Notes: generated by a model not told the origin, from the sequence alone. A stretch of DNA of 64,000 bases from Batkoa obscura (GCA_030770535.1 JASVEC010000021.1:62001-126000), one strand, 5' to 3'. Positions 10,203 to 64,000 are shown, counted from the first letter of the stretch. Program-made: numbers and translations.

Positions 10203-11667
10203 ATGTTCCGTTTATTTCAAAAGGTGGGTAATAGTCTATTCTTTTCCTCCAAACCTTCTGTCAAAACCTTCCCTTTTAATGACTTAATTTTACACACTGT
10301 CAAACTAAGTATAACCCTTTTATTAAACCTTTATGTGCCACTCTGTGTATTAAGCTTAATTTATATCTCATTAACCGGTGGTATAACGAATAACATGAAA
10401 TTAGTTATAAGTACCTACAATATAATAGAAATCTTATTTTACATTTACTGCACCATACTATACCATCAGTCAGACAATAACAAACACAGCTACAATATCA
10501 GTGAAGAGGATAGGAATAAATTAATAAGAGTATGGATTGAGGAAAAAAATTTAGATATAAATAACTTATTACGTTGGTTTAACCCAATAAATAAAGACTT
10601 GATCTCTGTTCAACAATGTCAAGAGTTCTTCGCTTGGTTATTTTATAACAATTATTTAGAAAAACTATCTGAAAAACAAAGTCAGAGTATTCAACAATTA
10701 ACAGAAAAAATTCAATTTTTATCTGGTATTTCTTTAAAGAAAGTGAATAGTGAGAAAGAGAAACGTCAAGCTATGAGACTAACTTTAGATAAATTAAATG
10801 TTTTATTTAAACCTTTATTAGTTTATTTGGTAATTTAATAATATAATATTTAATTCTATTGATGGTGTATTGATATTTATTTAGATTATATTCTTATTAC
10901 AATCAAGGATGAGCATCTTTCTATTATTAAATGGTTTTCAATACAATCACCACAACGAAAGCAAGTATTCTTATTATGTTTATGAGCCTATTAATCCAGA
11001 TAATACTAAAGACACTTTATTTTTTATCAATGGAATAGGACCAGGACTTTCTTATCTTAAGAAAATCTGTGAGTTAAAACAATCATATCCTAATCGAAAG
11101 ATTATAATGTTAGAATTGAAATATATAACAATTACACCAACAACTTATATTAACACAATTGAAGATACATTAAACTTTATGAATGTTATCTGTGAAAGAC
11201 ATAATATTCAAAAGATTTCATTAATAGGACATTCTTATGGTACTTTTATATGTTCTTGGTTAATGAAACATTGTAAAGAAAGAATAAGTAAATTAACATT
11301 AATTGATCCAGTATGTTTTTCTACTTGGGATTCTAATTTAACTCGAAATTTCATTTATAATAATCAGTTCAATTTAAAGTCCATTTTATGTGATTTAATT
11401 GTTTCTAAAGATTTATTCATCGCTAATACTATTGCTAGAAATTTTCTATGGGTAGAAAATTTATTGTTAATTGAGGACTTGGAAGATTTACAAGTCAATG
11501 TTTTTTTATCAGAGTTCGATTTTCTTATTGATAGTAGAAATGTGGAAAGCTATCTCAAGAAGAGTCCTCACTTTGGTAACAAATTAAAAGTTTCAATACT
11601 AAATGGGAATCATGGTATTTATCTTAGAAATCAAAAGTTTTTTAATACTGTTATGGCAGGCATTTAA
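10203..11667 (+). CDS. Membrane-anchored alpha/beta-hydrolase, copy 1 (469 aa)
   Basis: Exons 10203-10829 and 10885-11667 (phase-0 intron). N-terminal hydrophobic helices, oxyanion-loop motif FINGIG, nucleophile GHSYG, LIDPVCF, C-terminal D and HG. Confidence 0.88.
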
Positions 11668-15518: not shown

Positions 15519-17008
15519 ATGTTATCATCTTATAAAATCAATTTAAAATCAATATTTGTAGATTTAACTGGAAAAAGAGAAATACAAACAAAATGGATGA
15601 ATGAACGAGTATTAAAATTAATAGTTATATTATCAACTCAATTTATTAAGTTAATAACGCCGGCTGCTTTTACTGTAGGTATTTATTTAATATTTAGTGG
15701 TGGCTTAAAAAATAATAGTACATTATTTATTGGCATTTGGTGTATATTAGAAATTTATTTTTATTTTTATTGTTGGATGTTATATAGTAAATTATCAAAT
15801 AATAATAATAATAATAATAATATAAATAATAATAAAAAGAAAGAAATAGAAATTCAAGAAAAGATAGAATTAGCAAATGAAATCATAGAACAAGGTCATT
15901 TTAATCCAGAAGTTATATCGAAGTGGTTTAACCCAATAACTGAAGATTTAGTAGGATACAAACAAGCTAAAGAATGGCTATCTTGGTTAATCTATGATAA
16001 GTTTATTAACAACTTAAAATCAAATGAAAACCAACAAATCAATAATTTAATTAAGAAGATTGAATTGCATTCTAATATTATATTTCCAAAATTCAACTAT
16101 AATAAATTAAGAAAGCCAATGTTGTTAACTTTAGATCCTGTTATTGTTCAACATAAACCCTTAATTTTTTATGCTGTAAGTTTTCATTTATTTCTATTAA
16201 TATATAACGATAATTTATTTTATATTAGGCAATTGCATTAATTCAGGCCATTGCAGCTAGTTTTCTAATGTTATTAGGATTCCAACCTAATCATTTACCT
16301 AATAGTAAATATACATATTGGATTTATGAGCCTGTAAATCAAGATATAAATTCAAGTCCAATATTTTTTGTTCATGGAATTGGAATCGGATTAGCTATGT
16401 ATATTAAAAAAATATACGATTTACAACAATGTTATCCTAATAGAAAAATTATATTACTAGAATTGTCTTATATTAGTATGACTCCAATAACACAAGTTAA
16501 TTCTATTGAAGATACAATTAGTGCTTTAGATGATATTATTAAGTTACATAATTTATCCCCTTGTTCTTTTATTGGACATTCTTATGGTACTATTGTATGT
16601 GGTTGGTTTTTAAAATATCGTAGTAAATATGTTAAGAAATTAACTTTAATTGATCCAGTATGTTTTGCTGTATGGAACTCTGATTTAACTCGTAATTTCA
16701 TGTATAGTACAAGTAATTCATTTATTCATCAAATGTGTCAATTTTTTGTATCAAGAGATTTATTTATTGGTAATACCATTGGTAGAAACTTCTTTTGGCA
16801 TAAAAACTTATTATTACCTAAGAATATTAATAAGCCAACTACTGTTTATTTATCAAAATATGATTTTATTATTCATGCTCCTGATATCTTTAGTTATCTC
16901 AAACTACATCAAAATCAAAATTTTAAAGTAGCTATGATTGATGAATTAACCCATGGTGCTTATCTTATGTCCCGTACTCATTCTGATGCCATATTAAAAG
17001 ATATTTAA
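15519..17008 (+). CDS. Membrane-anchored alpha/beta-hydrolase, copy 2
   Basis: Exons 15519-16175 and 16229-17008. Motifs FVHGIGIG, GHSYG, LIDPVCF, SKYDF, THG. Same intron position as the other copies. Confidence 0.88.
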
Positions 17009-20744: not shown

Positions 20745-21541
20745 TTAAACTCCCTTTAAAACAATATCTGAAAAAGTTTGACTTAAAAGATAAGCTCCAT
20801 GATTGCCGTCTAACATCATTACTTTCAATTTATTGTCAAATTCTGGACTTTTTTTAAGATAAGTTAATACATTATTACTATTAATAATAAAATCTTCTTT
20901 TGCTAAAAATACATTCACTTTCAATCCCTTTATGTCTTGTAATAATAATAAATTTGGTAGCCATAAAAAATGTCTAGCAATTGTATTAGCAATAAATAAA
21001 TCTTTAGAGATAATTAAATCACAACATATTGAAATTAATGTAAATTGTTGATTATAAATAAAATTTCGAGTTAAATTAGAATCCCAAGTATTGAAACAAA
21101 CTGGATCAATTAATGTTAATTGCTGAATCTTTTGTTTACGATATTTAACTAGCCAAGAGCATATAAAAGTACCATAAGAATGTCCTATTAATGATATTTT
21201 TTGAATATTATGTAATTCACAAATATTATCTAAGAATTTCAATGTATCTTCAATTGTATTAATATGAATTGTTGGTGTCATTGTTATATAATTTAATTGT
21301 AATAATATAATCTTTCTATTAGGATAACATTGTTTTAATTCACTTATTTTTTTTAAATAAGTAGTTAATCCAATTCCAATTCCATGAATAAAAAATAATG
21401 TATCTTTTGTATTATCTAAATTATTAGGTTCATAAATATAATATGAATATTGAGTTTCACTATCATGATTATGTTGAAATCCATTAATAAGTAAATAAAT
21501 ACTACTAATTGTTTGAATAAGACAAATTATCTAATGTAAAA

Positions 21542-21580
<39 letters not shown>

Positions 21581-22246
21581 ACTTACAATATAAATTATTA
21601 AAGGTTTCAATAAAACATTCAATTTATCTAAAGTTAATCTCATAACTTTGCGACTCTCCTTTTGCTCATTTTGTTTATTTTGTTTATTTTGTTTATTTTG
21701 TTCATTTGATAATTTAATATTTGATAATAATTGAATCTTATCAGTTAATTGTTTAATATATTGATTTTCTTTATCAGATAAGTTTTGTATATAATTATCA
21801 TAAAACAACCAAGCTAAAAATTCATTACATTGTTCAATAGTAACTAATTCTTTAGTTATTGGATTAAACCAGCGTAATAAAGTATTAATATCTAAATTCT
21901 TATCTTCAATCCATATTTGAGCTAATTGACTTCGTTCTAATTCATTCATTCTATTATTATGTTTGTTGTTATCTATTTGATTATATAATATAGAGCAATA
22001 TATATAAAATAATATTTCTATTACATTATAAATGCTTAATATTAATTTAAAATTACTTGTTATACCACCAGTAAACATTATATAAATTAAACTCAATACA
22101 CATAATGGTACGTAAAGCTTTAAGAAAATAGTTATTGATAATTTAATAGTATATAATAGTAGAACATCAAAAGGGAAAGGTTTACTAATGGAAATGTTAT
22201 TAGGGAATAGAACATTGTTAATTCTCTTTGATAAAAATTGTGACAT
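20745..22246 (-). CDS. Membrane-anchored alpha/beta-hydrolase, copy 3
   Basis: Probable start MSQF at 22246. Exons 22246-21587 and 21530-20745. Motifs FIHGIGIG, GHSYG, LIDPVCF, NHG. Confidence 0.87.
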
Positions 22247-24101: not shown

Positions 24102-24205
24102 ATATGGGGCTGTTTTTTTAGTTTCACTATTTTTCCATTTTTTAAGCGCTACTGAGCAGAAAGATTGTTAGTAAAATTCTTAAACAAAAAAATATATCCC
24201 CATAT
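24102..24205 (-). mobile_element. ~105 bp MITE copy
   Basis: ATATGGGGCTGT...ATATCCCCATAT. Confidence 0.9.
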
Positions 24206-24674
24206 ACTTCTGCCATATTCAAAATAACTGATACTCCTAAAATATAACTTACAAAAGTAAGAAATAAGGCAATCTTTAAATTGCTCTTCCAAAAACGTTA
24301 AAGTATGATTCCAATCGGATGGACTCTACTTCGAACGCTATTGAAAAAAATGGCTGTATTTGGTTAAACTGCTTATGAAGAAAAGAATATAATTGTATCT
24401 CTCCTAAAATTGGGCTTAAAAATTTCCTTAAATTATACTTCAAACGTTGAAAAAGTAAGCAAATGAAACTTTTATAAAGTTGTTTATAGTAAAAACAGAA
24501 ATATATTAAAAATCATTTAGTTTATTAACATTTATTAATTTCATTCATATTATATTAATACTCAACATTTAATAAACTAAAAAATCATTATCTATTATTT
24601 TAATACATACTTTTAAGAAGAAATCATTGATTATTATTATATTAAATAACTATTAATATACAATAATGCCTTAT

Positions 24675-26163
24675 TCAAATGCCTGCCATAACAGTATTAA
24701 AAAACTTTTGATTTCTAAGATAAATACCATGATTCCCATTTAGTATTGAAACTTTTAATTTGTTACCAAAGTGAGGACTCTTCTTGAGATAGCTTTCCAC
24801 ATTTCTACTATCAATAAGAAAATCGAACTCTGATAAAAAAACATTGACTTGTAAATCTTCCAAGTCCTCAATTAATAACATATTCTGTAACCATGAAAAA
24901 TTTCTAGCCATTGTATTAGCAATGAATAAATCTTTAGAGATAATTAAATCACATAAAATGGACTTTAAATTGAACTGATTATTATAAATGAAATTTCGAG
25001 TTACATTTGAGTCCCAAATAGAAAAACATACTGGATCAATTAATGTTAATTTACTTATTCTTTCTTTACAATGTTTCATTAACCAAGAACATATAAAAGT
25101 ACCATAAGAATGTCCTATTAATGAAATCTTTTGAATATTATGTCTTTCACAAATAACATTCATAAAGTTTAATGTATCTTCAATTGTATTGATATATACT
25201 GTTGGTCTTAATGTAATATATTTCAATTCTAACATTATAATTTTACGATTAGGATATGTTCTCTTTAATTCACATATTTTTTTGAGATAACCAAACCCTA
25301 TCCCTATTCCATTGATAAAAAATAATGTATCTTTTGTATTATCTAAGTTATTAGGCTCATAAATATAATAAGAGTATCTGCTTTTAGTATGGTGATTATA
25401 TTGGAAACCGTTGATAAACATGTACATCTTCATTATTGTTTGTAGTATGGAAACAAACTAAAATAAAGATTAGTTTATTATTAATAGAAAAATATTAAAT
25501 TACCAAATAAATTATTAAAGGTTTCAATAAAACATTCAATTTATCTAAAGTTAATCTCATAACTTTGCGACTCTCCTTTTGCTCATTTTGTTTATTTTGT
25601 TTATTTTGTTTATTTTGTTCATTTGATAATTTAATATTTGATAATAATTGAATCTTATCAGTTAATTGTTTAATATATTGATTTTCTTTATCAGATAAGT
25701 TTTGTATATAATTATCATAAAACAACCAAGCTAAAAATTCATTACATTGTTCAATAGTAACTAATTCTTTAGTTATTGGATTAAACCAGCGTAATAAAGT
25801 ATTAATATCTAAATTCTTATCTTCAATCCATATTTGAGCTAATTGACTTCGTTCTAATTCATTCATTCTATTATTATGTTTGTTGTTATCTATTTGATTA
25901 TATAATATAGAGCAATATATATAAAATAATATTTCTATAAAATAATAGAAACTTGTAAACAACCTTAAATTATTGCTTATACCACCAGTTAATAAGATAT
26001 AAAGTAAACTTATTGAGCAGAGTGGTACATAAAGTGTTAATAGGAAGGTTATGCATAGTTTGATTATATGTAAGGCCATAGGATACGAAGACAAAGATTT
26101 AGCAGTAGAAGGTTTACTAGAATATAACAAATTATTAACCACTTTTTGAAATAATTGAAACAT
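24675..26163 (-). CDS. Membrane-anchored alpha/beta-hydrolase, copy 4 (mosaic of copies 1 and 3)
   Basis: Exons 26163-25504 and 25457-24675. Motifs FINGIGIG, GHSYG, NHG. Confidence 0.88.
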
Positions 26164-29802: not shown

Positions 29803-29911
29803 ATATGTGGATGGATGTATTCTTTTGTTTAAGAATTTTATTAACAATCTTTCCACTCAAATAGCGCCTAAAAAATGGAAAAAGTAATGAAATAAAAAAA
29901 CATCCCCTTAT
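29803..29911 (+). mobile_element. ~105 bp MITE copy
   Basis: ATATGTGGATGGATGTATTC...ACATCCCCTTAT. Confidence 0.85.
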
Positions 29912-44376: not shown

Positions 44377-46784
44377 TTATTCATCAATATCTTCTAAATT
44401 ATTATTATTATTATTATTATTATCATTAATTTCCTCTTCATTATTCTCTCTTTCTCTTCCATTTAAATGATTTATTTGTTTATTTAATGTTGTTTCATTT
44501 TCAATAAAGGATTTATTAAGTTGATAAGTTACTGGAATTAAATTTTCTTTTGTTTCCGGTTCAATTTCAATATTATCATTCATTTTTCCATTTTTATTAT
44601 TATTAAAAGGTGTAAAATAAGAAACAAAAGTTGATTTTAATGAATTAGAAACTCCATTCAAATTATTATTATCATTATTATTGAACATATTAGTAAATCC
44701 ATTAAATGTATTATTTTTATTATTTTTAGTAATATTATTTAATGAATTATTAATCAAATTTAATTGATTAATATATTTTTTAGATTCATTTTTTAATCTT
44801 ATTTCTTCTGTTTCTTGATTATTAAATGAATTAAATTTAATGTCTATTTCTGATGGAATTTCATAATCTCCATTAAAAGTTAATTCATTTTCTCTTTTTT
44901 TATCTGAAATAGAAGGTAATTGTAATGAATTAAAATTAAAGTTCAATTTCTTAATATCATGAATTGAATTTGTTGTTGTTGTATCTTTATTAATTGAAAT
45001 ATTACTAATATTATTATTTAATGTCGTTGTTGTTCTGTTTGATTCTTTATTTTCTAATAAATTTAAATTATTAAAGGAAACTGCCATTCGATCAATCGTT
45101 TGATCAATCTCTTCATTATTATTATTAATATCCTCTAATTTATTTATCTTTATATTATTATTATTATTAAATATTCCATTAAATTTTAATTTATCTTTAT
45201 TTATAATATTTGTATTATTATAATCCTTTGATTTTATATTATCTTCAAATATTTGATTAAAATTAGTATTATCTTTTGATTGTTTATTAAATATTGGATT
45301 AAGTCTAATTTGTTCTTTACTTTCATTGTTATTTTCTTTATTAATATCACTAAATATTGAATTAAAATTAGATTTGTCATTATACATCCTTTTATTACTT
45401 GAAAATGTTGAATTTAAATTTAAATTTAAATTTTCTTTAATATTTTCATGAATACTATTTTTATTATTATTATGAAATATGGATTTAAATTCCAATTTCT
45501 CTTTATTATCTTCTTTATTTTTTATATTCATTAATGTTTTAAAATCCATACCTTCTAATGGGTTGTTTTTATATTTACTATAAATGGATTGCACTCTTAT
45601 AAATTCTTCATATTTTTCTTCTTCTGTTTTATTTTCCCATTCATCTTTATTGTTTAATTTTATTTTTGTTTTATCATCATTAAATGTAGTATCAAATATT
45701 GATTTGAAATTGGAAGTTTCATTATTATTATTTTCCAGTGTAAAGTTATTAAATAAACCATTATACTTTAACTTTCCATTCTCCATTGAGAAATGGTTTG
45801 AATTATTATTACTTCCGAACATATTATTCTGATTCTCTTTATTCATCTTATTTGAATCAGTATTATTTTTTGTTTCAATAACTTGACTTTTAGTTATACC
45901 ATTCGGATATTTAATAACCTGGATTTTTGATCCACCAAATGTATATTCTTTACTTTCAATAGGTTCTGTTAAATCATCTATTTTATTTTTATTTAAATTT
46001 TCTTGAAATTTATTTTGTAATTTATCAATTGTAAATGTTTGTGGTCCAAATAATCCATTCTTCTTTATTACTTCATTACTATTTTTGATTTTATTTGGTA
46101 AAAAATTACTTAAAAACATACTTGATCTTTCCATTTGATTTGTTTTAATTAAATCTATTATAAAATATTATAAAATATTATACAAAATTATACAGTTGTA
46201 ATAACATAATTACCTGAATTTATAACTATTGGCTTTGGATGCTTTTTTGGATTAAACCTCTCTGGTAATTTACCTAATACATTTTTGTTTCTTTGAATAA
46301 AAGTTAATACTTCAATTGGTGGTAATAAATTTAAATCTTGATAAATTTTTTTCATAAAATATTGATACTTTTCAAACAAACTTCTTAAATCAGTAAATGG
46401 ATTCTTTATCATCTCCTTTCTAATATGTAATCTAAAACTTTCATTAAGTTTCTCCAACCTCTCTTCTGCTAGTTTTATTGCAGTACCTATTTGAATTTAA
46501 GCATTAGCCACATTCCTTAATTATAATATTAATATATTAGTAAAATTAAAACACGCATATATATATATATATATAATGAATTAAATAACAGTAATTATGT
46601 CAAAACTATTTTTTATTTCTATCATGACTTATATAGTAAGAATAGATTTATTACCTTCATCTAAATCCGGATTAAAAATAGCCTTAGCATATTTAAGTCT
46701 TCCATTAGCATTGGTTTCTTCACAATCATTTTTATGACTGTTACGATCATAATAATTAACAACATATACTCTTTTTTCTGCCAT
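44377..46784 (-). CDS. Nup50/Nup2-like low-complexity Asn-rich protein
   Basis: Start MAEKR at 46784, three exons (last 46154-44377). Exon 2 has LNESFRLHIRKEMIKNPFTDLRSLFEKY, matching the Nup50/Nup2 LNxxxxxxIxxxxxxNPxxDLxxxFxxY motif. Phe-repeat tail. Confidence 0.55.
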
Positions 46785-53784: not shown

Positions 53785-56040
53785 ATGAGTGATGAAGGTG
53801 GAAATCAGGAAATTAAAAATGGGAAAAAGTATTCTAAAGAAGATGTATTAAAATCGTATTTTGAATATAAAAACTTAAACGATTTTGATGAAAAAAGCTA
53901 TTTAGAATGTTTAGTTGATTATTCATATGAGGTAAATGGCTTAGTCTAAGAAGTAGTAATAAATTAACAAGGTTTAGATCATTACTAAGTATATCAATGA
54001 ATACATAGAAGAATCAAAAAGCTATTTCCAAGAAGTAGAAGGAAAGGAGTTAGCTGAAACTAAGTTGATAGTCTACTTGGGTAACATTGAGCTATTTTTG
54101 AAGCAAAAAAATAAAGGAAAAGAGTTTTGGGAGTTTTGTATTAAACAAAAAGAAAAGCAATTAAAGGAGTTAATGATGCGGCTAGTAATATAATTCTATT
54201 ATTATTTACTCATTGTTTATTTTCATATCAGCCTTATATTTGGTTATTAACTTCAGATAAGTTTTTGAATTATGCTTCAGTTCGGTTGATTTACCAATTT
54301 ATTGTGGTAAATGTTGGCTTGTCTGGAAATGAAGTAAAATTCAGTAGTATAAAGCAAGCAATAAATTCATACTAACAAAAATTTAAGTACCACTGTCAAC
54401 CAATATTGTATAATGTATTTTATGCTATGCGAGGTGAAATAAGGCCAGATGTTATTATAGATAAAGAAAGAGCCAAAATTGATGTTAATAAAACTAATAT
54501 TAATAGTACTATAAAAAACGGATTAAGCTTATATCATTTGATTCTAAAATATTTTCGTAAAAATCGACATCAACAATTAGTATATAGCGATCCCAAATAT
54601 GGATATGGGCAATTGTTGAGAAATTTACATTTAAAACTGAATTGCAATTCTTTAATACAAGTTTTTGAGGACCTATTGGTAAACTTGCATTTCTATTGAG
54701 TAACGTAATTTAATACTTTTTATTAGGTCAAATTCCCAGATTTAGAGTATTATTTTTTGATGTTTTCCATCGATTTAAACAAGAAAACACCTTTCCTTTC
54801 AGATGAAAGTGGGAGTCATATAAAGAATTTTTCAAAGAAGATGGTAATTTATCTTATATGAATAGTATTATTTATAATAAATATAAGGTTGATCGAGATG
54901 TATGGGATATTAGATATATCAACCGCAAAAGATTGGAATTATGTGATATACTAGTCCATAGTACCTTAGTAAAATTCTCGGTGGTAAGTACCTGCAAGAT
55001 AGTACTACAAATTTAGTTTAATCTATTTTTTAGTGGGAATTGGTCTTGACATGTTTAACTAGATATGTAAGTAGAGTGACAGAAGTGATGGATACTGAGA
55101 AATGGCTTAAATACAATGAAGAAGCAACATGTGGATTTATCACAATTAAAAGTCAGGAATTAGATAAAGATGAATTATTTGACTATGAAAATACAAGAAT
55201 GGCAATATTAACGGGAGCAACTGGAATACGAGTATATTTACATCATCAACTGGATGAACGAACTAAATCTTCACCAGAACTGAGAGATCAAATACATAAA
55301 TTAGGAGAATATATAACCAAAGTAATTAATATTAAAAATGATCCAACTGTATTTTCGATCGAAAAAGAATTCAATTCGTTATTCTTTTTATTTTTAGTAT
55401 CCGAACCTTCTTTGTATACGCTATTAGTTATTCTGATTCATATCGATGAAAATATCAAAAAGATATTCAATAGTCCCGAATACCAAATAGAAAATGAAAG
55501 GTAATTGGTAGCTGATATTCTCTATTTATGGTATTTAATATGTATTTTAGAGAATTGGTTACTAAATTAAATGAATTATGTAAACCAGACTATTTGATAT
55601 TAAGGTATTTCCAACATAATAAGTTTGACCATCAAACTTTAGTACAGCTATTTACTGAAAACAATAAAGAAGGGGTAGTATTCTTTAAACTATTAGTTAA
55701 AAGATTATCAGATGAAACCAATTGGAGTGATTTCATAAAATGCGTTAATGCTATTAATACAGAGTTATATTATGAGCTTGGGATATGCTTAATGGAAACA
55801 ACTTATGAATTAAAGAAATTAAAGTCCAAAAATTCCAATAAGGATGCCTATTCATCATGGGATGGACTTGATGAAACTATAAGATTGTTAGAGATACTTA
55901 ATTATAAATTTTTGGCTAATGAAGCTCTGTTCAATCCTAATAGACAGAATACCTCTTCGAACACCAACTTGTCTCAAATTAGGGGTCCAAATTCTCAGGT
56001 TAATGCAAATGGTAATCATAGAGGTTTAAGAAACTCGTGA
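53785..56040 (+). CDS. Probable divergent Lines (LINS1) homologue, multi-exon
   Basis: Start MSDEGG at 53785. ORF pieces 54406, 55040 and 55528 are linked by short GT-AG introns. C-terminal FDHQTLVQLF...FFKLLVKRL...NWSDFIKC...CLMETTYELKKL...TIRLLE resembles the Lines_C pattern. Confidence 0.5.
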
Positions 56041-56278: not shown

Positions 56279-56763
56279 AGCTTAAACAATCGTCTGAACT
56301 CTCATAGAATTTGAGTTATTTGTCAATTATGAGATAATAATTTTATTTTTTATAAAACTGATATTTAGTTAAAATTCATTCAATCGATAAAAATTATTGA
56401 TAGGGAATAAATCAATGGTTATTAATGATATTGTAATATCACATTGTTAAATCTAAAGATGAAATAAATTAAAATACTTTCACAAGTCTACTATTCTGTT
56501 CTTTTACCTGTATAAAAAATATCTTAAGGCTATTGTTACCATACCTTTTAGTTTCAGCTATTTATAAACAAGTTTAATTTCCTTGATATATTCTAGATTT
56601 TAAGGTTTAATGTTAAAAAAATAGAACTAATAGCTCTACTTCAGGTCCATCTCAATTTTATATTTATTCAAATAATATAGCCAGATGTCTATAGATACCA
56701 TATATCATGTTTTCAACTTAAAAGTCTAAAGTCGAGCAAATATTTTAAAGCTTTATTAGTAGC

Positions 56764-56871
56764 ACATAGGGATTTATTTTTTGTTTAAGGATTTTATTAA
56801 CAATCTTTCCGATCAATAACGCTTAAAAAATGAAAAAAGTGATGAAGCCAAAAAAAAACATCATCACATAT
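56764..56871 (+). mobile_element. ~105 bp MITE copy
   Basis: ACATAGGGATTT...ACATCATCACATAT, ~55 bp downstream of the eEF2-like stop codon. Confidence 0.83.
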
Positions 56872-56926
56872 TATAATTACTAGTTATTTATAATGCTATA
56901 ACTATTAATAAATTTTTGAAACTTGC

Positions 56927-59449
56927 TTATAGCTTATTCAAATAGTCATTAGGCGATGGAATCTCTGGTTTGAGCCCTTTGCGTTCACGTATCTTAAAGA
57001 TAATTGAGGATACTAATCCAGGTTCATAAATGGAACCAGGAACTATATTCCAATGACTAAAAGTAAGTTTTAGCAAAGCTCTACCACGGGTACTCGAAAT
57101 TAAGGCTTCATGGAAACCAAATGACTCACTGACAGGTAGGTAACCTTCAAGGATAGAGACAAGATTACCTGGGCCCTCAGCTATATTTTCTATGTACCCA
57201 CGACGTTTTGATATTAGTGACTGTGCACTACTTAAAACCTCGTTTGGAACTTCAATCTCAACCAAATAAACAGGCTCAAGTAACGTCGGCTCAGCTTTAA
57301 GCTGTGATCCATGGATAACACGGCGGCACATAGGGATAATTTGATCGTCACCACGATGAATAGCATTAGCATGTAGTACAGCGTCAGTGATATTAAAACA
57401 TGTGGCTCTCATCTTCTCCCCACATAAAGCACCTTCCTTGGTCGCCCATTGAAAAGCACTATTACATGAATTCTTAATTTCAGAAAGGTATGTTATGTCT
57501 TTAGTTTCATCAACTAAAAGGTTAGTTCCAGCATCTTCTGGACCAAAACACCATATACGACGACCAGCATTGATATCCCAACCATGGTTCTCAAAAAGGT
57601 AGCGAGAGATAGCTTCATCGTCGTCTTTTGAGCTAATTTTTCCTTTCTCAATCTCTGATACAATAGACACATCTAATGGCCCTACTTTCATATAAATTCG
57701 GTTATAATTGTTTGGGGATTCAGATGAATTTGATTTTAGAGATTCAGTTTGAACTGTTTCGCAATATTGTACAGATAAGTCACTAGCTTTAATAGGTACA
57801 CCAGTATATTCTTTCTGAAGGTTATCGATAGACATTTCAAGGTGTAACTCTCCGGTACCACTAATAATATGTTGACCAGATTCAGAAGTGAAGCATTGTA
57901 CAAGTGGGTCAGACTTGGATAAACGTTTAAGGCCTTCAATTAGCTTTGGCAAATCATCAGGATTCTTAACATCAACAGCAACTTGTACTACAGATGCAGT
58001 AGAAAATTTCATAGTTTTGATGTTAAAAGCTGTTTCTAAAGTAGTAATTGTACCAGATTTGAGAAGAAATTGATCAACACCAGTAAAACCAATAATGTTA
58101 CCAGCCGGACAATCCTCGATAGACTCAAAATAATGTCCTGTCACAAGGATAGTACTCTCAATAGGTTTAATAAAAAGGTCATCATCTTTACCTGGGATAT
58201 AGTTAGGGCCTTGAATACGCACTTTAAGACCTGAGCGAGCAGTACCTGAAAAAATACGACCAAAAGCATAGAAACGGCCGCTATCAGAAATCGGTACCAT
58301 TTTAGATATATAAGCCATGAAAGGGCCATTTGGATCACATTTTCTAATAGCAGTACAGGCTTCGTCATCAATTGGCCCTTCATAAAGGGTAGCAGCACGA
58401 TACTTTTGAGCAGTAACAGGTGATGGAAGATGAATGACAGCCATCTCAAGCAGCGCATCAGAAGCAGGTAGAAATTTACGCATAACTATATTAAGTAAAG
58501 GCTTTCCATTTAACTCTTTCTCTTCATTGTTGAGTTGTATATTTAATCTTTCTAGTAGATTTTCAAGCTCACCGCGTTTAGAATTCATTACTGTGTCAAA
58601 AATACGATAAATAGGATCCAAAATTAACATATTAAAACTACGCTCCAAGGAGTTATTATCAGAAGCATTAGCTTTGGTAATCCATCTTTTGGACTCTGGG
58701 ATATAATAATAGTCGCCCCAAAGGACTTTCATAAGTTTTTCTTTATCGACACCAAATTTCTTATAATAGATTTCAGCAAACTGACGAAGAGTAAAGGCCC
58801 ATCCACCAAGACCAGAACTAAAAGCAACTGTTCCATCTTTTGCATCAACTCGAGTAGCTCCTGATTCATTATCAGTATAGGTAGAGATAGTTATATTGAA
58901 ATTATCGATTCTACGGCGTAAAGATTGATAAAGTTCTTCTTTTTCAAGTTGAAGCTCAAATATAGCACGATCTAATTTGTTTAGGACCAATATAGGCTTG
59001 ATTGCTTCAGTAAGAGCTAGACGTAAAGTGCTTTCTGTTTGTACACATAAACCATCGATACAATCCAAAATAACCAAGGTGCCATCAGTAACTCGAAGTG
59101 CATTAGCTATTCCTGTTGAGAAGCTAGTATATCCTGGCAGTTCAATTAGATTGACCAAAAATTCACCACCATTTGTTTCTTGGTTAATAATTTTCGTACT
59201 CTCCTCTGGCAATCCAAAATATAAAGGGGTAGAAGTAGATTTAGTATTATACTGATCTTGCTTATCTTGACTGACGACAGTGCCACTGGTGTTTCTAGTA
59301 TTATTTGTTGGAACGATTCTAGCCTTTGATATTAAAGAATCAACCAATGTAGATTTTCCGTGGTCAACGTGCCCTATAACAGCCACATTACGGATATTAG
59401 ATGGCTTGCCCATCATAGCACGAATGTTGTCCATAGTTAAGTTCACCAT
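56927..59449 (-). CDS. EFT2-like: Divergent translation elongation factor 2 paralogue (predicted GTPase-dead)
   Basis: 840 aa, colinear with fungal eEF2 from MV..T to the C-terminal Y.nKL. G1 GHVDHGKS, G4 NKLD and domain III LPKLIEGLKRLSKSDP are retained. G3 is ELPGY and switch I is degenerate. No introns. Confidence 0.93.
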   Translation of the reverse strand: MVNLTMDNIRAMMGKPSNIRNVAVIGHVDHGKSTLVDSLISKARIVPTNNTRNTSGTVVSQDKQDQYNTKSTSTPLYFGLPEESTKIINQETNGGEFLVNLIELPGYTSFSTGIANALRVTDGTLVILDCIDGLCVQTESTLRLALTEAIKPILVLNKLDRAIFELQLEKEELYQSLRRRIDNFNITISTYTDNESGATRVDAKDGTVAFSSGLGGWAFTLRQFAEIYYKKFGVDKEKLMKVLWGDYYYIPESKRWITKANASDNNSLERSFNMLILDPIYRIFDTVMNSKRGELENLLERLNIQLNNEEKELNGKPLLNIVMRKFLPASDALLEMAVIHLPSPVTAQKYRAATLYEGPIDDEACTAIRKCDPNGPFMAYISKMVPISDSGRFYAFGRIFSGTARSGLKVRIQGPNYIPGKDDDLFIKPIESTILVTGHYFESIEDCPAGNIIGFTGVDQFLLKSGTITTLETAFNIKTMKFSTASVVQVAVDVKNPDDLPKLIEGLKRLSKSDPLVQCFTSESGQHIISGTGELHLEMSIDNLQKEYTGVPIKASDLSVQYCETVQTESLKSNSSESPNNYNRIYMKVGPLDVSIVSEIEKGKISSKDDDEAISRYLFENHGWDINAGRRIWCFGPEDAGTNLLVDETKDITYLSEIKNSCNSAFQWATKEGALCGEKMRATCFNITDAVLHANAIHRGDDQIIPMCRRVIHGSQLKAEPTLLEPVYLVEIEVPNEVLSSAQSLISKRRGYIENIAEGPGNLVSILEGYLPVSESFGFHEALISSTRGRALLKLTFSHWNIVPGSIYEPGLVSSIIFKIRERKGLKPEIPSPNDYLNKL

Positions 59450-61056
59450 AGTTTAATAAAGTTAAAAAGCCGTGGTAACGTTTGAATACCAACCTTTTAT
59501 ATTTTACGAAAAATTAGTGGTAACTTTTGCATCATCGACTTTGGTATTTCAGACGTGATATTAATTGGAATTCTCATGTAATCTATCCCTTATTTTTCCT
59601 TTTTTGTTTCCAAATCAACTATTATCAGATTTTGTATGCAAGTATGATTTAATCTATTTTTCATTGAAGCATTACTCAGTTGTAGTTTGGTTTTTTGGTA
59701 GCTTTTCTGGTGATATGATGCTTGACTGAGATAGAAAACAAAAAAGTTTTTAATATTATAAATTAACAACTAAAACACAATCTTATAAAAAATATATGGA
59801 GAAAAAAGATCTTCTGCTCTTTGTTTTAATACTCTATAGCTTTTTCTAAATAAAGTTATATTACTTCAAACAATGTAATTGTTGTTTATTGATCTATTTT
59901 AAGTAATTTTGAGTTATCCAGTTCTTTCATAGCTATAATACCTGTTCTTATTAATATGCTTTGTTTTTTAACAATTGATTAAATAAGCGATTTATATTTC
60001 TAATAGCCTTAAGTTATATCTTCAAGCTAACCTTTCCAACATCGAAATTTTATTTAGCTTTTATTCTTTTTAAAATTCAAGGCTACAAATTTTTTTATCA
60101 TGTTCAGTGGTTAAACCAACATTGCTGAATTCAAGGTGGAGATAAATCAGGGATTAAATGACCTTTAAAAGAGTGTAAAGTGGGATTCGCAGTAGAGGAT
60201 CTAAGACCATATCAAATTTTCTAGATTAACTCTTCGGAAAGTGTCCTACAGTATAAATAGTACTAATTTATGGCGAATTTTTGGTTTTAAATTCCTGAAA
60301 TCTTTGAAAAGTGGAGTTTGGTACAGTGAAATTTTTCTTTAATATAGTTCTAGCGTATTATAAAATAAAATTAATATACTTTTTAAGACGCACTTATTAA
60401 GACACACTTATTAAGTGAAAGCATGATCGATTAAGATCACAATAGTATATCAGCTACTATGATTTATGCTATTTATAATTGAAGCTCTTTTTATCAATTT
60501 TTAATAACGATTTATTCTTTAAAATTCTTGACCTTGTGTTCTTAAATAATTTATTAATACAATTAAAGAAAATTTGAAGAGAAAAGAGTGTCAAAAGCTA
60601 AAGCTTCTCGTTCGCTCCAGTTCTGCGATAAATTCACTTTGTTAATGAGGAAATCATTTTTCCACTTAATTATCTGGTACATATATGAAGAGGAGAATTG
60701 TGTAAGGCAGCTCCAAATGGAGGGGAATCAATATTGACTTTGTAGATGGTCTAGGATATTGGTAAATTAAAACTGAAAACAAACACGATATAAAACAAGT
60801 TGAGATAACAATCAAAGTAATTGATTTTATAGAAAAATTGAAGGAATCCTTTGAATATAGAGAAAGGATTTGACTGTCAGAGGTATTTAACCAGAAGACA
60901 AATAGAAAACCAACGATTTAAGCCAATTATAAATTTAGAAAACATATTTCTTAGTTTTACAAATTATTCCTTGAATACAAACGTTTTGAATAAGGAGAGT
61001 ATTGTATTAGTAATATCAGATACTTACTTTCAAGAAATATCAATATTTTTGGATTA

Positions 61057-61161
61057 ATATGGAGATGTATTTTTTGTTTAAGGATTTTGCTAACAATCTT
61101 TCTGCTCAAATAGTACTTAAAAATGAAAAAGATGATAAAACTAAAAAAGACATCCCCATAT
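61057..61161 (+). mobile_element. ~105 bp MITE copy
   Basis: ATATGGAGATGT...ACATCCCCATAT. Confidence 0.88.
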
Positions 61162-61210
61162 AAAATTATAGTTTCATAATTTAATAAAAATTTATGAAAA
61201 TATCTTGATG

Positions 61211-61315
61211 ATAAGGGGATGTATTTTTGTATTTAAGAATTTTACTAACAATTTTCCCACTGAAATAGTGCTTAAAAGATGGAAAAAGTGATGAAGCCAA
61301 AGAAACATCCCCATA
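61211..61315 (+). mobile_element. ~105 bp MITE copy
   Basis: ATAAGGGGATGT...ACATCCCCATA. Confidence 0.9.
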
Positions 61316-62553: not shown

Positions 62554-64000
62554 ATGTTTGAATCCAAACTGATTATTGAGTTGTTAAGCGAATTAAGTGG
62601 AGTGAGAGTAGATATTAAAAATCCCCATAATTTTCATTCACCATTAAATATCATATTATATGTAATAATAAGGTTTATAAAGTTGATAGTACCAATTTCA
62701 ATAATAACAATACTTTACAATATCTATTATGGAATCAACACTAACTTATCACTAATTCTACTCATTTTAAGTGTTAATGAAGTGGCTTTTTTTATTTACT
62801 TTAAATATTTAAATAAAAAAATGGTACTGAAAAGAAAAGAATTTAAGTTTGATCTAAACGAAACGGACAAACAGAAGATAGTTTCATTACTATTTGATGG
62901 AAATTATTTTGATTTAAGCTTGATAAATAAATATTTTTATCCATACTCAAATGAAGAACTTACGTTTAATCAGGTAAAGCAATGGCTAGCATGGTATTTA
63001 CATGTACGCGATTTGAATAGTTTATCAAATGAAATGGATATGGAATTGAACGAATATGTTGAGTTAATACAAACGAAACTTGATATAAAATTAAGTAAAG
63101 AGGAAGACAAATTACAGCGTGCTCCTGTGTTTCTGGCTTTGACTGAATTTAGCTCAAAGTATAAGCCCATTTTATTTTATTTGGTAAGTTACTTGTACAA
63201 AGTATTATCAACTATTTATTAATTTTTAACTTAGACAATTATGTTATTTCACACTTCAATGTGTATAATATTAATGCTCTCTGGTTTCCAAAGAAATTCA
63301 ATAAAAAATTCCCCGATAACTTATTGGATATATGAGCCACATGAAAATCTTTCTGATAATAACAGTAGTAATGACGAACCACCAATATTATTTATACATG
63401 GAGTAGGTACAGGTGTATCATTATACATGCGCCAAATTTTAAAATTAAGAACTGACTTTCATACTCGTAAAATTGTTTTATTAGAACTTCAAGCAGTGAC
63501 TTTAATCCCTACTTTACAAATACCAACTGTTGAAGATATAATGTATGCGCTAGATAGTGCATTTCAACTTCACGAAATTGAAAAATGCTCAATAATGGCT
63601 CATTCTTATGGTACAATTGCAACTAGTTTTATATTAAAACATCGTCCATACTATATTCAAAAAATGTGTCTAGTTGATCCAGCTTGCTTCACTAATTGGG
63701 AACCTACTTTTGCGGTCAATTTTATGTTTAATCAATTAGATTTTTTTATGAATAGGGTTACTCAACACTTGATGGCAGAGGATTTGTTTGTTGGTAACAC
63801 TATAGGCAGATATGCTATCTTAAATCAAGGAATTGCTTTTAACCAAGATTTAAATGTACCCACCTATGTTTATTTATCTAAATACGATTTTTTACTCAAC
63901 TCTAATTATATTATAAGTCATTTAACAGAATTGAGAGTAAAACTCAACAATTCGAATATCAATTATTATATGTTGGACTTAACTCATGGCGCTTATCTCT
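62554..64000 (+). CDS. Membrane-anchored alpha/beta-hydrolase, copy 5 (more distant; runs off window end)
   Basis: Exons 62554-63183 and 63235->64000. Motifs FIHGVGTG, AHSYG, LVDPACF, SKYDF, THG. Same phase-0 intron position as copies 1-4. Confidence 0.87.

What the first reader, a model, noticed from the sequence alone, without database searches (positions are those of the whole stretch)
59100..59330. Intact eEF2 paralogue with a disabled GTPase centre (pseudo-GTPase translation factor)
Seen: an uninterrupted 840-codon ORF colinear with eEF2. G1 (GHVDHGKS) and G4 (NKLD) are kept. G3/switch II reads IELPGYTSF (Glu103 at 59143-59141, Tyr107 at 59131-59129) and switch I reads NTSGTVVSQDKQDQYNTKST. 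Known: canonical eEF2 has IDSPGHVDF (Mg-linked Asp and the catalytic His, yeast H108) and RFTDTRKDEQERGITIKST, nearly invariant in translational GTPases and containing the Thr56 phosphosite motif. Inference: the protein may bind nucleotide but should not perform ribosome-stimulated GTP hydrolysis. The absence of stops or frameshifts despite heavy divergence argues for selection rather than decay. Possible roles are a hydrolysis-independent factor (conceptually like bacterial EF-G2), a dormancy/hibernation regulator, or a decoy.
Basis: partly seen in the sequence, partly recalled or inferred. Interest (0 to 1): 0.88.

Follow-up and report, generated by a model that had tools for sequence, protein, structure and literature searches.

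The report
Switch-dead eEF2 copy in a fungus
Besides its normal ribosome-moving factor eEF2, this fungus carries an intact, fast-evolving extra copy that has lost the residues needed to split GTP; it appears to be transcribed and still under selection, and it likely acts as a non-catalytic brake on protein synthesis, though a slowly decaying duplicate is not excluded.

Summary
Observation confirmed: an unbroken 840-codon eEF2 gene (56927-59449, minus strand) with D103E and H107Y in G3, plus R66Q, loss of Ile70 and A26G. Correction: the G2 threonine (Thr69) and the Thr56-site threonine are kept. The closest protein is Neoconidiobolus thromboides eEF2 (60%); pieces of a canonical-like eEF2 gene occur in the same sequencing runs. 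Damage is concentrated in the switches: 25 of 35 conserved sites changed, against 108 of 433 elsewhere. An open frame at this divergence is very unlikely without selection (P at most 1e-5), and 11 of 16 visible strain variants are silent. One RNA run and one probable RNA run hold it. H-to-Y and R-to-Q are the changes that cripple mycobacterial EF-G in a preprint. Against a settled function: no orthologue outside these runs, a sister copy is frameshifted, the switch region drifts near neutrally, and several basic, probably ribosome-facing residues are lost. His-less full-length eEF2-like proteins recur (25 of 97 divergent representatives; other fungi, Dictyostelium, Entamoeba), and this scan noted one before in Naegleria. 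Verdict: a probable pseudo-GTPase, a eukaryotic variant of the EF-G2 theme; role untested.

The parts
56927..59449 (-). Intronless 840-codon eEF2 paralogue (domains G, G', II, III, IV, V all present)
   Evidence: AlphaFold2 model mean pLDDT 85, best fold matches eEF2
59351..59374 (-). G1 / P-loop, residues 26-33; Asp29, Lys32, Ser33 kept; Ala26 to Gly
   Evidence: Gly here typifies bacterial EFG II
59234..59293 (-). Switch I / G2, residues 53-72: R55S, D58V, R60S, E63K, R66Q, I68N, Ile70 deleted; Thr57 and Thr69 kept; modelled with pLDDT under 50 (residues 49-69)
59120..59143 (-). G3 / switch II, residues 103-110: D103E, S104L, H107Y (catalytic His), V108T, D109S; Gly106 kept
   Evidence: 116 of 116 canonical hits have DSPGHVDF
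58970..58981 (-). G4 NKLD; Asn157, Lys158, Asp160 kept
58802..58819 (-). G5 region, partly changed (G212S, H215G)
57698..57718 (-). Domain IV second tip loop: K581N, H582Y (and K577E just before it)
57341..57373 (-). Diphthamide loop: His698 (57358-57356), Arg699, Gly700 kept; D695N, G701D, G702D
57053..57274 (-). Domain V (about residues 726-799), second most eroded part: 17 of 35 conserved sites changed
56744..59446 (-). Inferred extent of the single 2703-nt contig in probable RNA run X2 (ORF plus about 180 nt of 3' flank); only 231 nt of it were laid
   Evidence: predicted word share 0.944 against 0.94 reported
56766..56855 (.). Dispersed 90-nt repeat just 3' of the gene; absent from the flank of the sister copies; used as a DNA-contamination control

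Best explanation
The gene is an intact, lineage-specific duplicate of eEF2 whose two GTPase switches are destroyed while the fold and most nucleotide-binding residues are kept; it is probably transcribed and still under purifying selection, is predicted not to hydrolyse GTP on the ribosome, and most likely works as a weak, non-catalytic eEF2 mimic that occupies the factor site and damps translation, as proposed for Mycobacterium smegmatis EF-G2. Shown: sequence changes, open frame, targeted erosion of the switches, presence in several strains. Supported but indirect: selection and transcription. Inferred: nucleotide binding, loss of hydrolysis, ribosome binding, damping of translation.
For: Switch I+II: 25 of 35 conserved sites changed against 108 of 433 elsewhere, p 5e-8. 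H107Y and R66Q match H88Y (near-complete loss of ribosome-dependent GTPase) and R62Q (marked loss) in M. smegmatis EF-G1, and EF-G2 there has Tyr naturally and is reported to trap ribosomes under stress (passages of a preprint). Lys32, Ser33, Thr69, Asn157, Lys158, Asp160 kept. Selection: 77 of 299 invariant sites changed against 79 of 155 sites under 80% conserved, p 1.5e-7; a neutral codon model expects 11-19 stops at 28-37% divergence, P(none) 1e-5 to 2e-9; 11 of 16 visible strain variants silent against 34% expected, p 0.004. Transcription: RNA run X10 covers 57151-58048 and 58103-59429 with zero depth on the flanking repeat, which has depth 8,000-317,000 in three DNA runs; X2 holds one contig of transcript-like extent. 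52 of 72 conserved basic residues, His698, Arg699, Glu657 and the domain III helix are kept.
Against: No assay, no protein evidence. 20 of 72 conserved basic residues lost their charge, four of them in domain II (K390S, K422D, R432S, R439H), net charge -14 against -5 to -10; domain V is eroded (17 of 35); the switch I helix that contacts uL14 in hibernating ribosomes is scrambled: ribosome binding may be weak or gone. Against a sister copy the switch region shows 15 replacement to 10 silent differences (ratio about 0.87, p 0.43 against neutral). A copy in X6 is frameshifted. No orthologue outside these runs. Only 40 of 534 variant rows were shown; in the worst case for the X6 allele the silent excess vanishes (7 of 14, p 0.16). 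H-to-Y and R-to-Q can each arise by one transition, and 24 of the 25 listed differences to the X8 copy are transitions, so the match to EF-G2 may be mutational. X2 is only guessed to be RNA and may be the window's own strain.
Confidence: 0.35

Rival explanations
1. A transcribed duplicate in slow decay: it was constrained for part of its history, now has no function, and has not yet caught a stop.
For: Sister copy in X6 has frameshifts; near-neutral ratio in the switch region against the X8 copy, with six residues where the window left the canonical state after the split; window allele carries K612E at a 98% conserved site; very long branch (3.7 against 0.12); no orthologue found elsewhere.
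Against: No stop or frameshift seen in the window allele or in the near-identical pieces of X2, X6, X8, X10; silent excess among strain variants (11 of 16); erosion is targeted, not uniform; P(no stop) at most 1e-5.
Confidence: 0.25
2. An off-ribosome decoy or sponge: a folded eEF2 shell that binds eEF2-directed proteins or compounds (chaperones, modifying enzymes, diphthamide-directed toxins of competitors) without entering translation.
For: Fold residues are kept better than eEF2-specific ones (159 of 197 shared with Snu114 against 143 of 229); basic residues are lost; His698-Arg699-Gly700 kept; birth and death of copies and repeated appearance of such proteins in soil eukaryotes fit conflict-driven genes (inference); 15 of 25 His-less proteins keep the diphthamide His.
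Against: No attacker is known for this fungus; a decoy must rival a very abundant protein, and contig depth in X10 was no higher than for canonical-like pieces (4-7 against 11-38; a poor measure); D695N and two new Asp residues alter the diphthamide loop.
Confidence: 0.2
3. A slow translocase that works without GTP hydrolysis, like Bacteroides EF-G2.
For: All domains present, diphthamide His, Arg699 and Glu657 kept; EF-G H92A still translocates slowly and a hydrolysis-free paralogue is cited.
Against: K581N removes the lysine described as contacting tRNA (one canonical Smittium eEF2 also has Asn there); K577E, G701D, G702D add negative charge at the tip; domain II and V losses.
Confidence: 0.12
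4. A still-active GTPase with a remodelled centre.
For: Thr69, Gly106, Lys32 kept; Thermus EF-G-2 hydrolyses GTP and A-to-G in the P-loop raises intrinsic hydrolysis in archaeal EF-2.
Against: H88Y nearly abolishes ribosome-dependent hydrolysis in EF-G1; here D103E, R66Q, I68N and the Ile70 deletion come on top; the X8 copy even tolerates G106E.
Confidence: 0.08

Closest known systems
Canonical eEF2 (yeast Eft1/2, PDB 1N0U; N. thromboides KAI9293406.1)
   Same: Length, domain order, fold, P-loop Lys/Ser, NKxD, diphthamide His; 56-60% identity.
   Different: Catalytic His, G3 Asp, switch I Arg and Ile lost; domain IV tips, domain II basic residues and domain V altered; evolves far faster.
Mycobacterium smegmatis EF-G2 (EFG II subfamily)
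   Same: Second copy of the translocase with Tyr for the catalytic His, Gly at the first P-loop position and a relaxed G2 motif; reported to lack ribosome-dependent GTPase and to trap ribosomes under stress.
   Different: Bacterial, ancient and widespread subfamily; the fungal gene is an independent, apparently young duplicate of eEF2; EFG II keeps the G3 Asp, this protein has Glu; nothing assayed here.
Bacteroides thetaiotaomicron EF-G2 (Han et al. 2023; seen only as cited)
   Same: EF-G paralogue without GTPase activity beside a canonical copy.
   Different: It is reported to translocate; here the domain IV tips are altered and translocation is untested.
Archaeal aEF-2p (Narrowe et al. 2018, PMC6143161)
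   Same: Second EF-2 copy with altered domain IV loops.
   Different: aEF-2p keeps G1-G5 and loses the diphthamide His; this protein does the reverse.
Efl1/Ria1 and Snu114
   Same: eEF2-derived paralogues with new roles.
   Different: Ancient and pan-eukaryotic; Snu114 scores about half as high (533 against 1005 bits) and has an N-terminal extension; Pfam EFL1 is below cut-off.
Divergent eEF2 copies of Naegleria gruberi (Atkinson 2015, PMC4342817)
   Same: Species-specific, highly divergent eEF2 duplicates were noted; an earlier scan note describes a His-less one.
   Different: Other supergroup; that copy is said to lack the diphthamide His too; no function tested.

Membership tests
eEF2 family (by descent) | G, G', II, III, IV, V domains colinear with eEF2 | tested here: met
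   Pfam GTP_EFTU, EFG_III, EFG_IV, EFG_C above cut-off, domain II families below it; full-length alignment to yeast eEF2; fold search
eEF2 family (by descent) | Closer to eEF2 than to Efl1 or Snu114 | tested here: met
   Bit scores 940-1043 for eEF2 against at most 534 for Snu114 and 337 for Efl1; falls among fungal eEF2 in the FastTree
Canonical functional eEF2 | G3 DxPGH with catalytic His | tested here: not met
   ELPGY; 116 of 116 canonical hits have DSPGH
Canonical functional eEF2 | G2 RGITI/RCITI | tested here: not met
   QYNT plus one-residue deletion; only the Thr kept
Canonical functional eEF2 | G1 Lys-Ser and G4 NKxD | tested here: met
Canonical functional eEF2 | Domain IV loops HxDxxHRG and SPxKHN | tested here: not met
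   His698, Arg699, Gly700 kept; Asp695, Lys581, His582 changed
Canonical functional eEF2 | Ribosome-stimulated GTPase and translocation | not testable with these tools
   needs biochemistry
Pseudo-GTPase | GTPase fold with catalytic residues lost | tested here: met
Pseudo-GTPase | Expressed and maintained by selection | tested here: inconclusive
   For. Against: near-neutral switch region, broken sister copy, partial variant tables
Pseudo-GTPase | No measurable hydrolysis | not testable with these tools
   predicted from H88Y/R62Q data only
Bacterial EFG II / EF-G2 | Descent from the bacterial EFG II clade | tested here: not met
   EF-G chains score 120-128 bits against about 1000 for eEF2; the likeness is convergent
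Processed retrogene | Introns lost relative to parent, poly(A) tail, target-site repeats | tested here: inconclusive
   No poly(A) run seen after the stop; the canonical-like pieces align across the start codon and between 57866 and 58133 without an intron, so the parent may be intron-poor

The most novel reading that the evidence does not exclude
Eukaryotes repeatedly and independently turn spare eEF2 genes into switch-dead translation brakes: an unrecognised class of eEF2 pseudo-GTPases (this fungus, Dactylellina, Mycena, Dictyostelium discoideum, Entamoeba, Naegleria) that parallels bacterial EF-G2 and converges on the same His-to-Tyr/Arg-to-Gln disabling here; the Dictyostelium member makes it testable by genetics.
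Probability: 0.25. Interest if true: 0.8.

Novelty: new variant of a known kind. Interest (0 to 1): 0.5.

Why it matters
GTPase-dead translocase paralogues are an emerging regulatory theme in bacteria, and eEF2 itself is the main factor on hibernating eukaryotic ribosomes. A eukaryotic eEF2 copy kept without a working switch would be a new handle on whether and how eukaryotes brake elongation with a dedicated factor. The gene is not in the protein collections searched, and the survey shows that similar proteins are common but unannotated, one of them in Dictyostelium discoideum, where knockouts are routine. If it proves to be a decaying duplicate, it still documents how a core GTPase degenerates: switches first, fold last.

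Tried and rejected
No whole genome is held, so gene copy number and the canonical gene's own G3 were not read directly. Orthologue searches found nothing close: full-length search best 60%, residues 36-135 gave 138 candidates and no hit, shorter proteins best 63%, metagenome scan 350 pattern matches and 0 confirmed, runs X12 and X13 laid 0 contigs on 59090-59320, which is no proof of absence. 7 of 15 runs were laid; X1, X3, X4, X5, X9, X11, X14, X15 were not. X7 holds 0.75 of the words but no contig of the paralogue was laid. RIP-like hypermutation was considered and rejected: differences to the X8 copy go both ways (12 A>G/T>C, 12 C>T/G>A), no dinucleotide context stands out, and CpA/TpA ratios resemble neighbouring genes. 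Exact sister position to Neoconidiobolus copy A is not proven: 92/87 support, and the AU test does not reject a position outside the four Entomophthorales eEF2 (p 0.143). The FastTree of divergent eEF2-like proteins is long-branch dominated and was not used to claim kinship or independence. One substitution (P558L) lies at a site that I recall as a sordarin-resistance position in yeast; a search found no paper, so it was dropped. Dominant-negative yeast eEF2 G-domain mutants are recalled only (searches found no text). A Dictyostelium second EF-2 is recalled only (0 papers). The ESM Atlas gave no answer. No complex prediction was run: no partner sequence from this fungus was available. Contig depths were not used to rank expression.

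Full report
Observation. The minus strand holds one 840-codon frame at 56927-59449. It aligns end to end with yeast eEF2 (1005 bits) and far less well with Snu114 (at most 534), Efl1 (337) or EF-G (at most 128). All 116 canonical full-length hits used for comparison read DSPGHVDF and RGITI, RCITI or RGVTI (117 of 123 stored proteins were of 800-860 residues, the window's included). Runs X2 and X8 confirm Gln66, Glu103 and Tyr107. Two corrections: the G2 threonine (Thr69) and Thr57 are kept, with Ile70 deleted; and Ala26, G5, both domain IV tip loops and domain V have also changed. An AlphaFold2 model from 46 sequences has mean pLDDT 85, with switch I (49-69) under 50, and matches eEF2 structures first; this mostly reflects the alignment.

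Host and origin. The window is AT-rich eukaryotic DNA with exocyst Exo84, a phosphodiesterase, an amino-acid transporter and a G-alpha piece. The best full-length hit is Neoconidiobolus thromboides eEF2 KAI9293406.1 at 60%, followed by Massospora, Entomophthora and a second N. thromboides copy. In an IQ-TREE of 22 fungal proteins the window row and the four Entomophthorales eEF2 are split from the other 17 at 100/99; the window is sister to the first N. thromboides copy at 92/87 on a branch of 3.7 against 0.12. The AU test does not reject a position just outside those four (p 0.143). No genome is held. In DNA-type runs X6, X7 and X8, pieces 81-84% alike lie on conserved parts of the gene, and their differences give canonical residues such as Cys516, Val504 and Val456; two loose ends in X10, read by eye, match the first N. 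thromboides copy. So a canonical-like eEF2 gene very likely coexists, and the host is an entomophthoralean fungus near N. thromboides (inference). That gene's own G3 motif was not seen.

Where the damage falls. On the window's branch (733 of 840 sites with an inferable ancestral state), 15 of 21 conserved sites in switch I and 10 of 14 in switch II changed, against 26 of 102 in the rest of domain G, 23 of 138 in G'-II, 17 of 57 in III, 22 of 88 in IV, 17 of 35 in V and 3 of 13 at the C-terminus: switches 25 of 35 against 108 of 433, p 5e-8; domain V p 0.002. Lys32, Ser33, Thr69, Gly106, Asn157, Lys158 and Asp160 remain, so nucleotide binding is plausible (inference). In a preprint (10.64898/2026.05.25.727771, passages read) H88Y nearly abolished and R62Q reduced ribosome-dependent GTPase of M. 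smegmatis EF-G1, and EF-G2, which has Tyr there, is said to trap ribosomes under stress. The window has both equivalent changes. Gly at the first P-loop position typifies EFG II (PMC3150367, passages; PMC4342817, passages and section 12). Caveats: Thermus EF-G-2 does hydrolyse GTP, and both changes need only one transition.

Selection. For: 77 of 299 invariant sites changed against 79 of 155 sites under 80% conserved (p 1.5e-7). An analytic neutral codon model (three parameter sets) expects 11-19 stops at 28-37% protein divergence, P(none) 1e-5 to 2e-9. Strain variants: one search showed 40 of 534 rows; I set aside 18 as belonging to the canonical-like gene and 7 as non-coding; the other 15, plus one, are 11 silent and 5 replacement against 34% silent expected (p 0.004, pN/pS about 0.23). 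If all unseen variants of the X6 allele were replacements the excess would vanish (7 of 14, p 0.16). Against: X6 and X8 each hold a further copy about 87-90% alike. The X6 copy has frameshifts and deletions (67 gap letters); the four listed X8 pieces show only one compensated indel pair, which the X6 copy shares; stops in them were not checked. In 59120-59283 the X8 copy differs at 25 listed sites (of 36 in 224 nt): 15 replacement, 10 silent, ratio about 0.87. It shares Gln66, Glu103, Tyr107 and the deletion, so these predate the split; of 13 residue differences six show the window leaving the canonical state, three the copy (including G106E), four neither. The switch region thus drifts freely, which fits a dead switch but also decay. 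No orthologue was found elsewhere.

Transcription. RNA run X10 covers 57151-58048 and 58103-59429 with 10 and 12 differences, and has zero depth over the 3' repeat, where three DNA-type runs have 8,000-317,000; the repeat has 23 further matches in the window. This argues against DNA carry-over. X2 (guessed to be RNA; longest record 9080 nt) holds one 2703-nt contig, identical over the 231 nt laid, whose ends would be 59446 and 56744 if colinear; the predicted word share 0.944 matches the reported 0.94, and X3-X5 of the same study report 0.91-0.94. DNA contigs in X6 and X8 run on past 59700. X2 may be the window's own strain. These are contigs: they show presence, not level, strand or stage.

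Recurrence. Among the 150 best 50%-cluster representatives, 97 are 770-1000 residues long; 25 of them lack His at the G3 column (two alignments are ambiguous), 15 of the 25 keep the diphthamide His and 22 the G4 Asp. Twenty representatives were looked up: His-less ones with names are from Dactylellina haptotyla, Mycena rebaudengoi, Dictyostelium discoideum (two records) and Entamoeba marina. Sites kept by the window are also better kept in these proteins (0.59 against 0.35). None is close to the window (identity at most 0.43), and some may be pseudogenes or bad gene models. Ten paper searches returned no listing that describes a GTPase-dead eEF2 paralogue in fungi or a eukaryotic class of them; subscription papers are mostly not covered and no supplements were read, where Atkinson's tables may list some.

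How it most likely works. Shown: a folded eEF2 frame with dead-looking switches. Inferred: it binds GDP or GTP, cannot be triggered by the sarcin-ricin loop, and so cannot cycle. The simplest use is as a weak occupant of the factor site that slows elongation, as for M. smegmatis EF-G2; eEF2-GDP itself sits on most hibernating ribosomes (PMC13541302, abstract and section 7). I give this 0.35 only, because the switch I helix that contacts uL14 there is scrambled, 20 of 72 conserved basic residues lost their charge and domain V is eroded. Weakened binding could be what makes a dead copy tolerable, or could mean that it has left the ribosome. Rivals: decaying duplicate 0.25, off-ribosome decoy 0.2, hydrolysis-free translocase 0.12 (PMC12775393, passages; domain IV criteria from PMC6143161, passages and section 21), active GTPase 0.08. 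Together, 'a selected protein without hydrolysis' has about 0.67.

Verdict. Real and unannotated, a eukaryotic variant of a theme known from bacteria; apparently confined to a narrow lineage, with mixed evidence on current function. Interest 0.5; the wider class, if functional, would deserve 0.8.

Noticed in passing
window 56766-56855 and 23 further places (e.g. 29813-29904, 24113-24211, 61059-61304): A dispersed 90-110 nt AT-rich repeat, 75-86% alike, both orientations, with depth over a thousand times single-copy in DNA runs; probably a small non-autonomous element.
   Followed up: partly
window 10203-11667, 15519-17008, 20745-22246, 24675-26163, 62554-63999: Five similar-looking pairs of ORFs (about 220-240 aa followed by about 250 aa); four of the second ORFs hit Pfam Abhydrolase_1: a local expansion of an alpha/beta hydrolase gene, probably split by an intron.
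   Followed up: no
runs X6 and X8 laid on window 56700-59700: Extra copies of the paralogue; their short 3' flanks differ from each other at about 4 of 24 letters and lack the repeat, so they may be two different loci, one frameshifted and one possibly open.
   Followed up: partly
proteins P0004 and P0007: N. thromboides has two eEF2 genes only 81% identical, both with intact motifs; the second groups with Entomophthora eEF2 (97/93).
   Followed up: partly
run X6, window 58266-58466: Two canonical-like contigs differing by about one letter at equal depth: two near-identical canonical eEF2 copies or alleles.
   Followed up: no
proteins P0167 and P0282: Dictyostelium discoideum hypothetical proteins (KAM9958618.1, KAM9969539.1): full-length eEF2-like with G1, G2 and G3 all degenerate in P0167.
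   Followed up: partly
window 44377-46134 (-) and 55088-56040 (+): A 585-aa ORF with strong AT skew and a two-part ORF next to the gene, neither with a Pfam hit.
   Followed up: no
run X10: The fungus's transcripts occur in a run recorded as a fish gut metatranscriptome; one study only, habitat not established.
   Followed up: no
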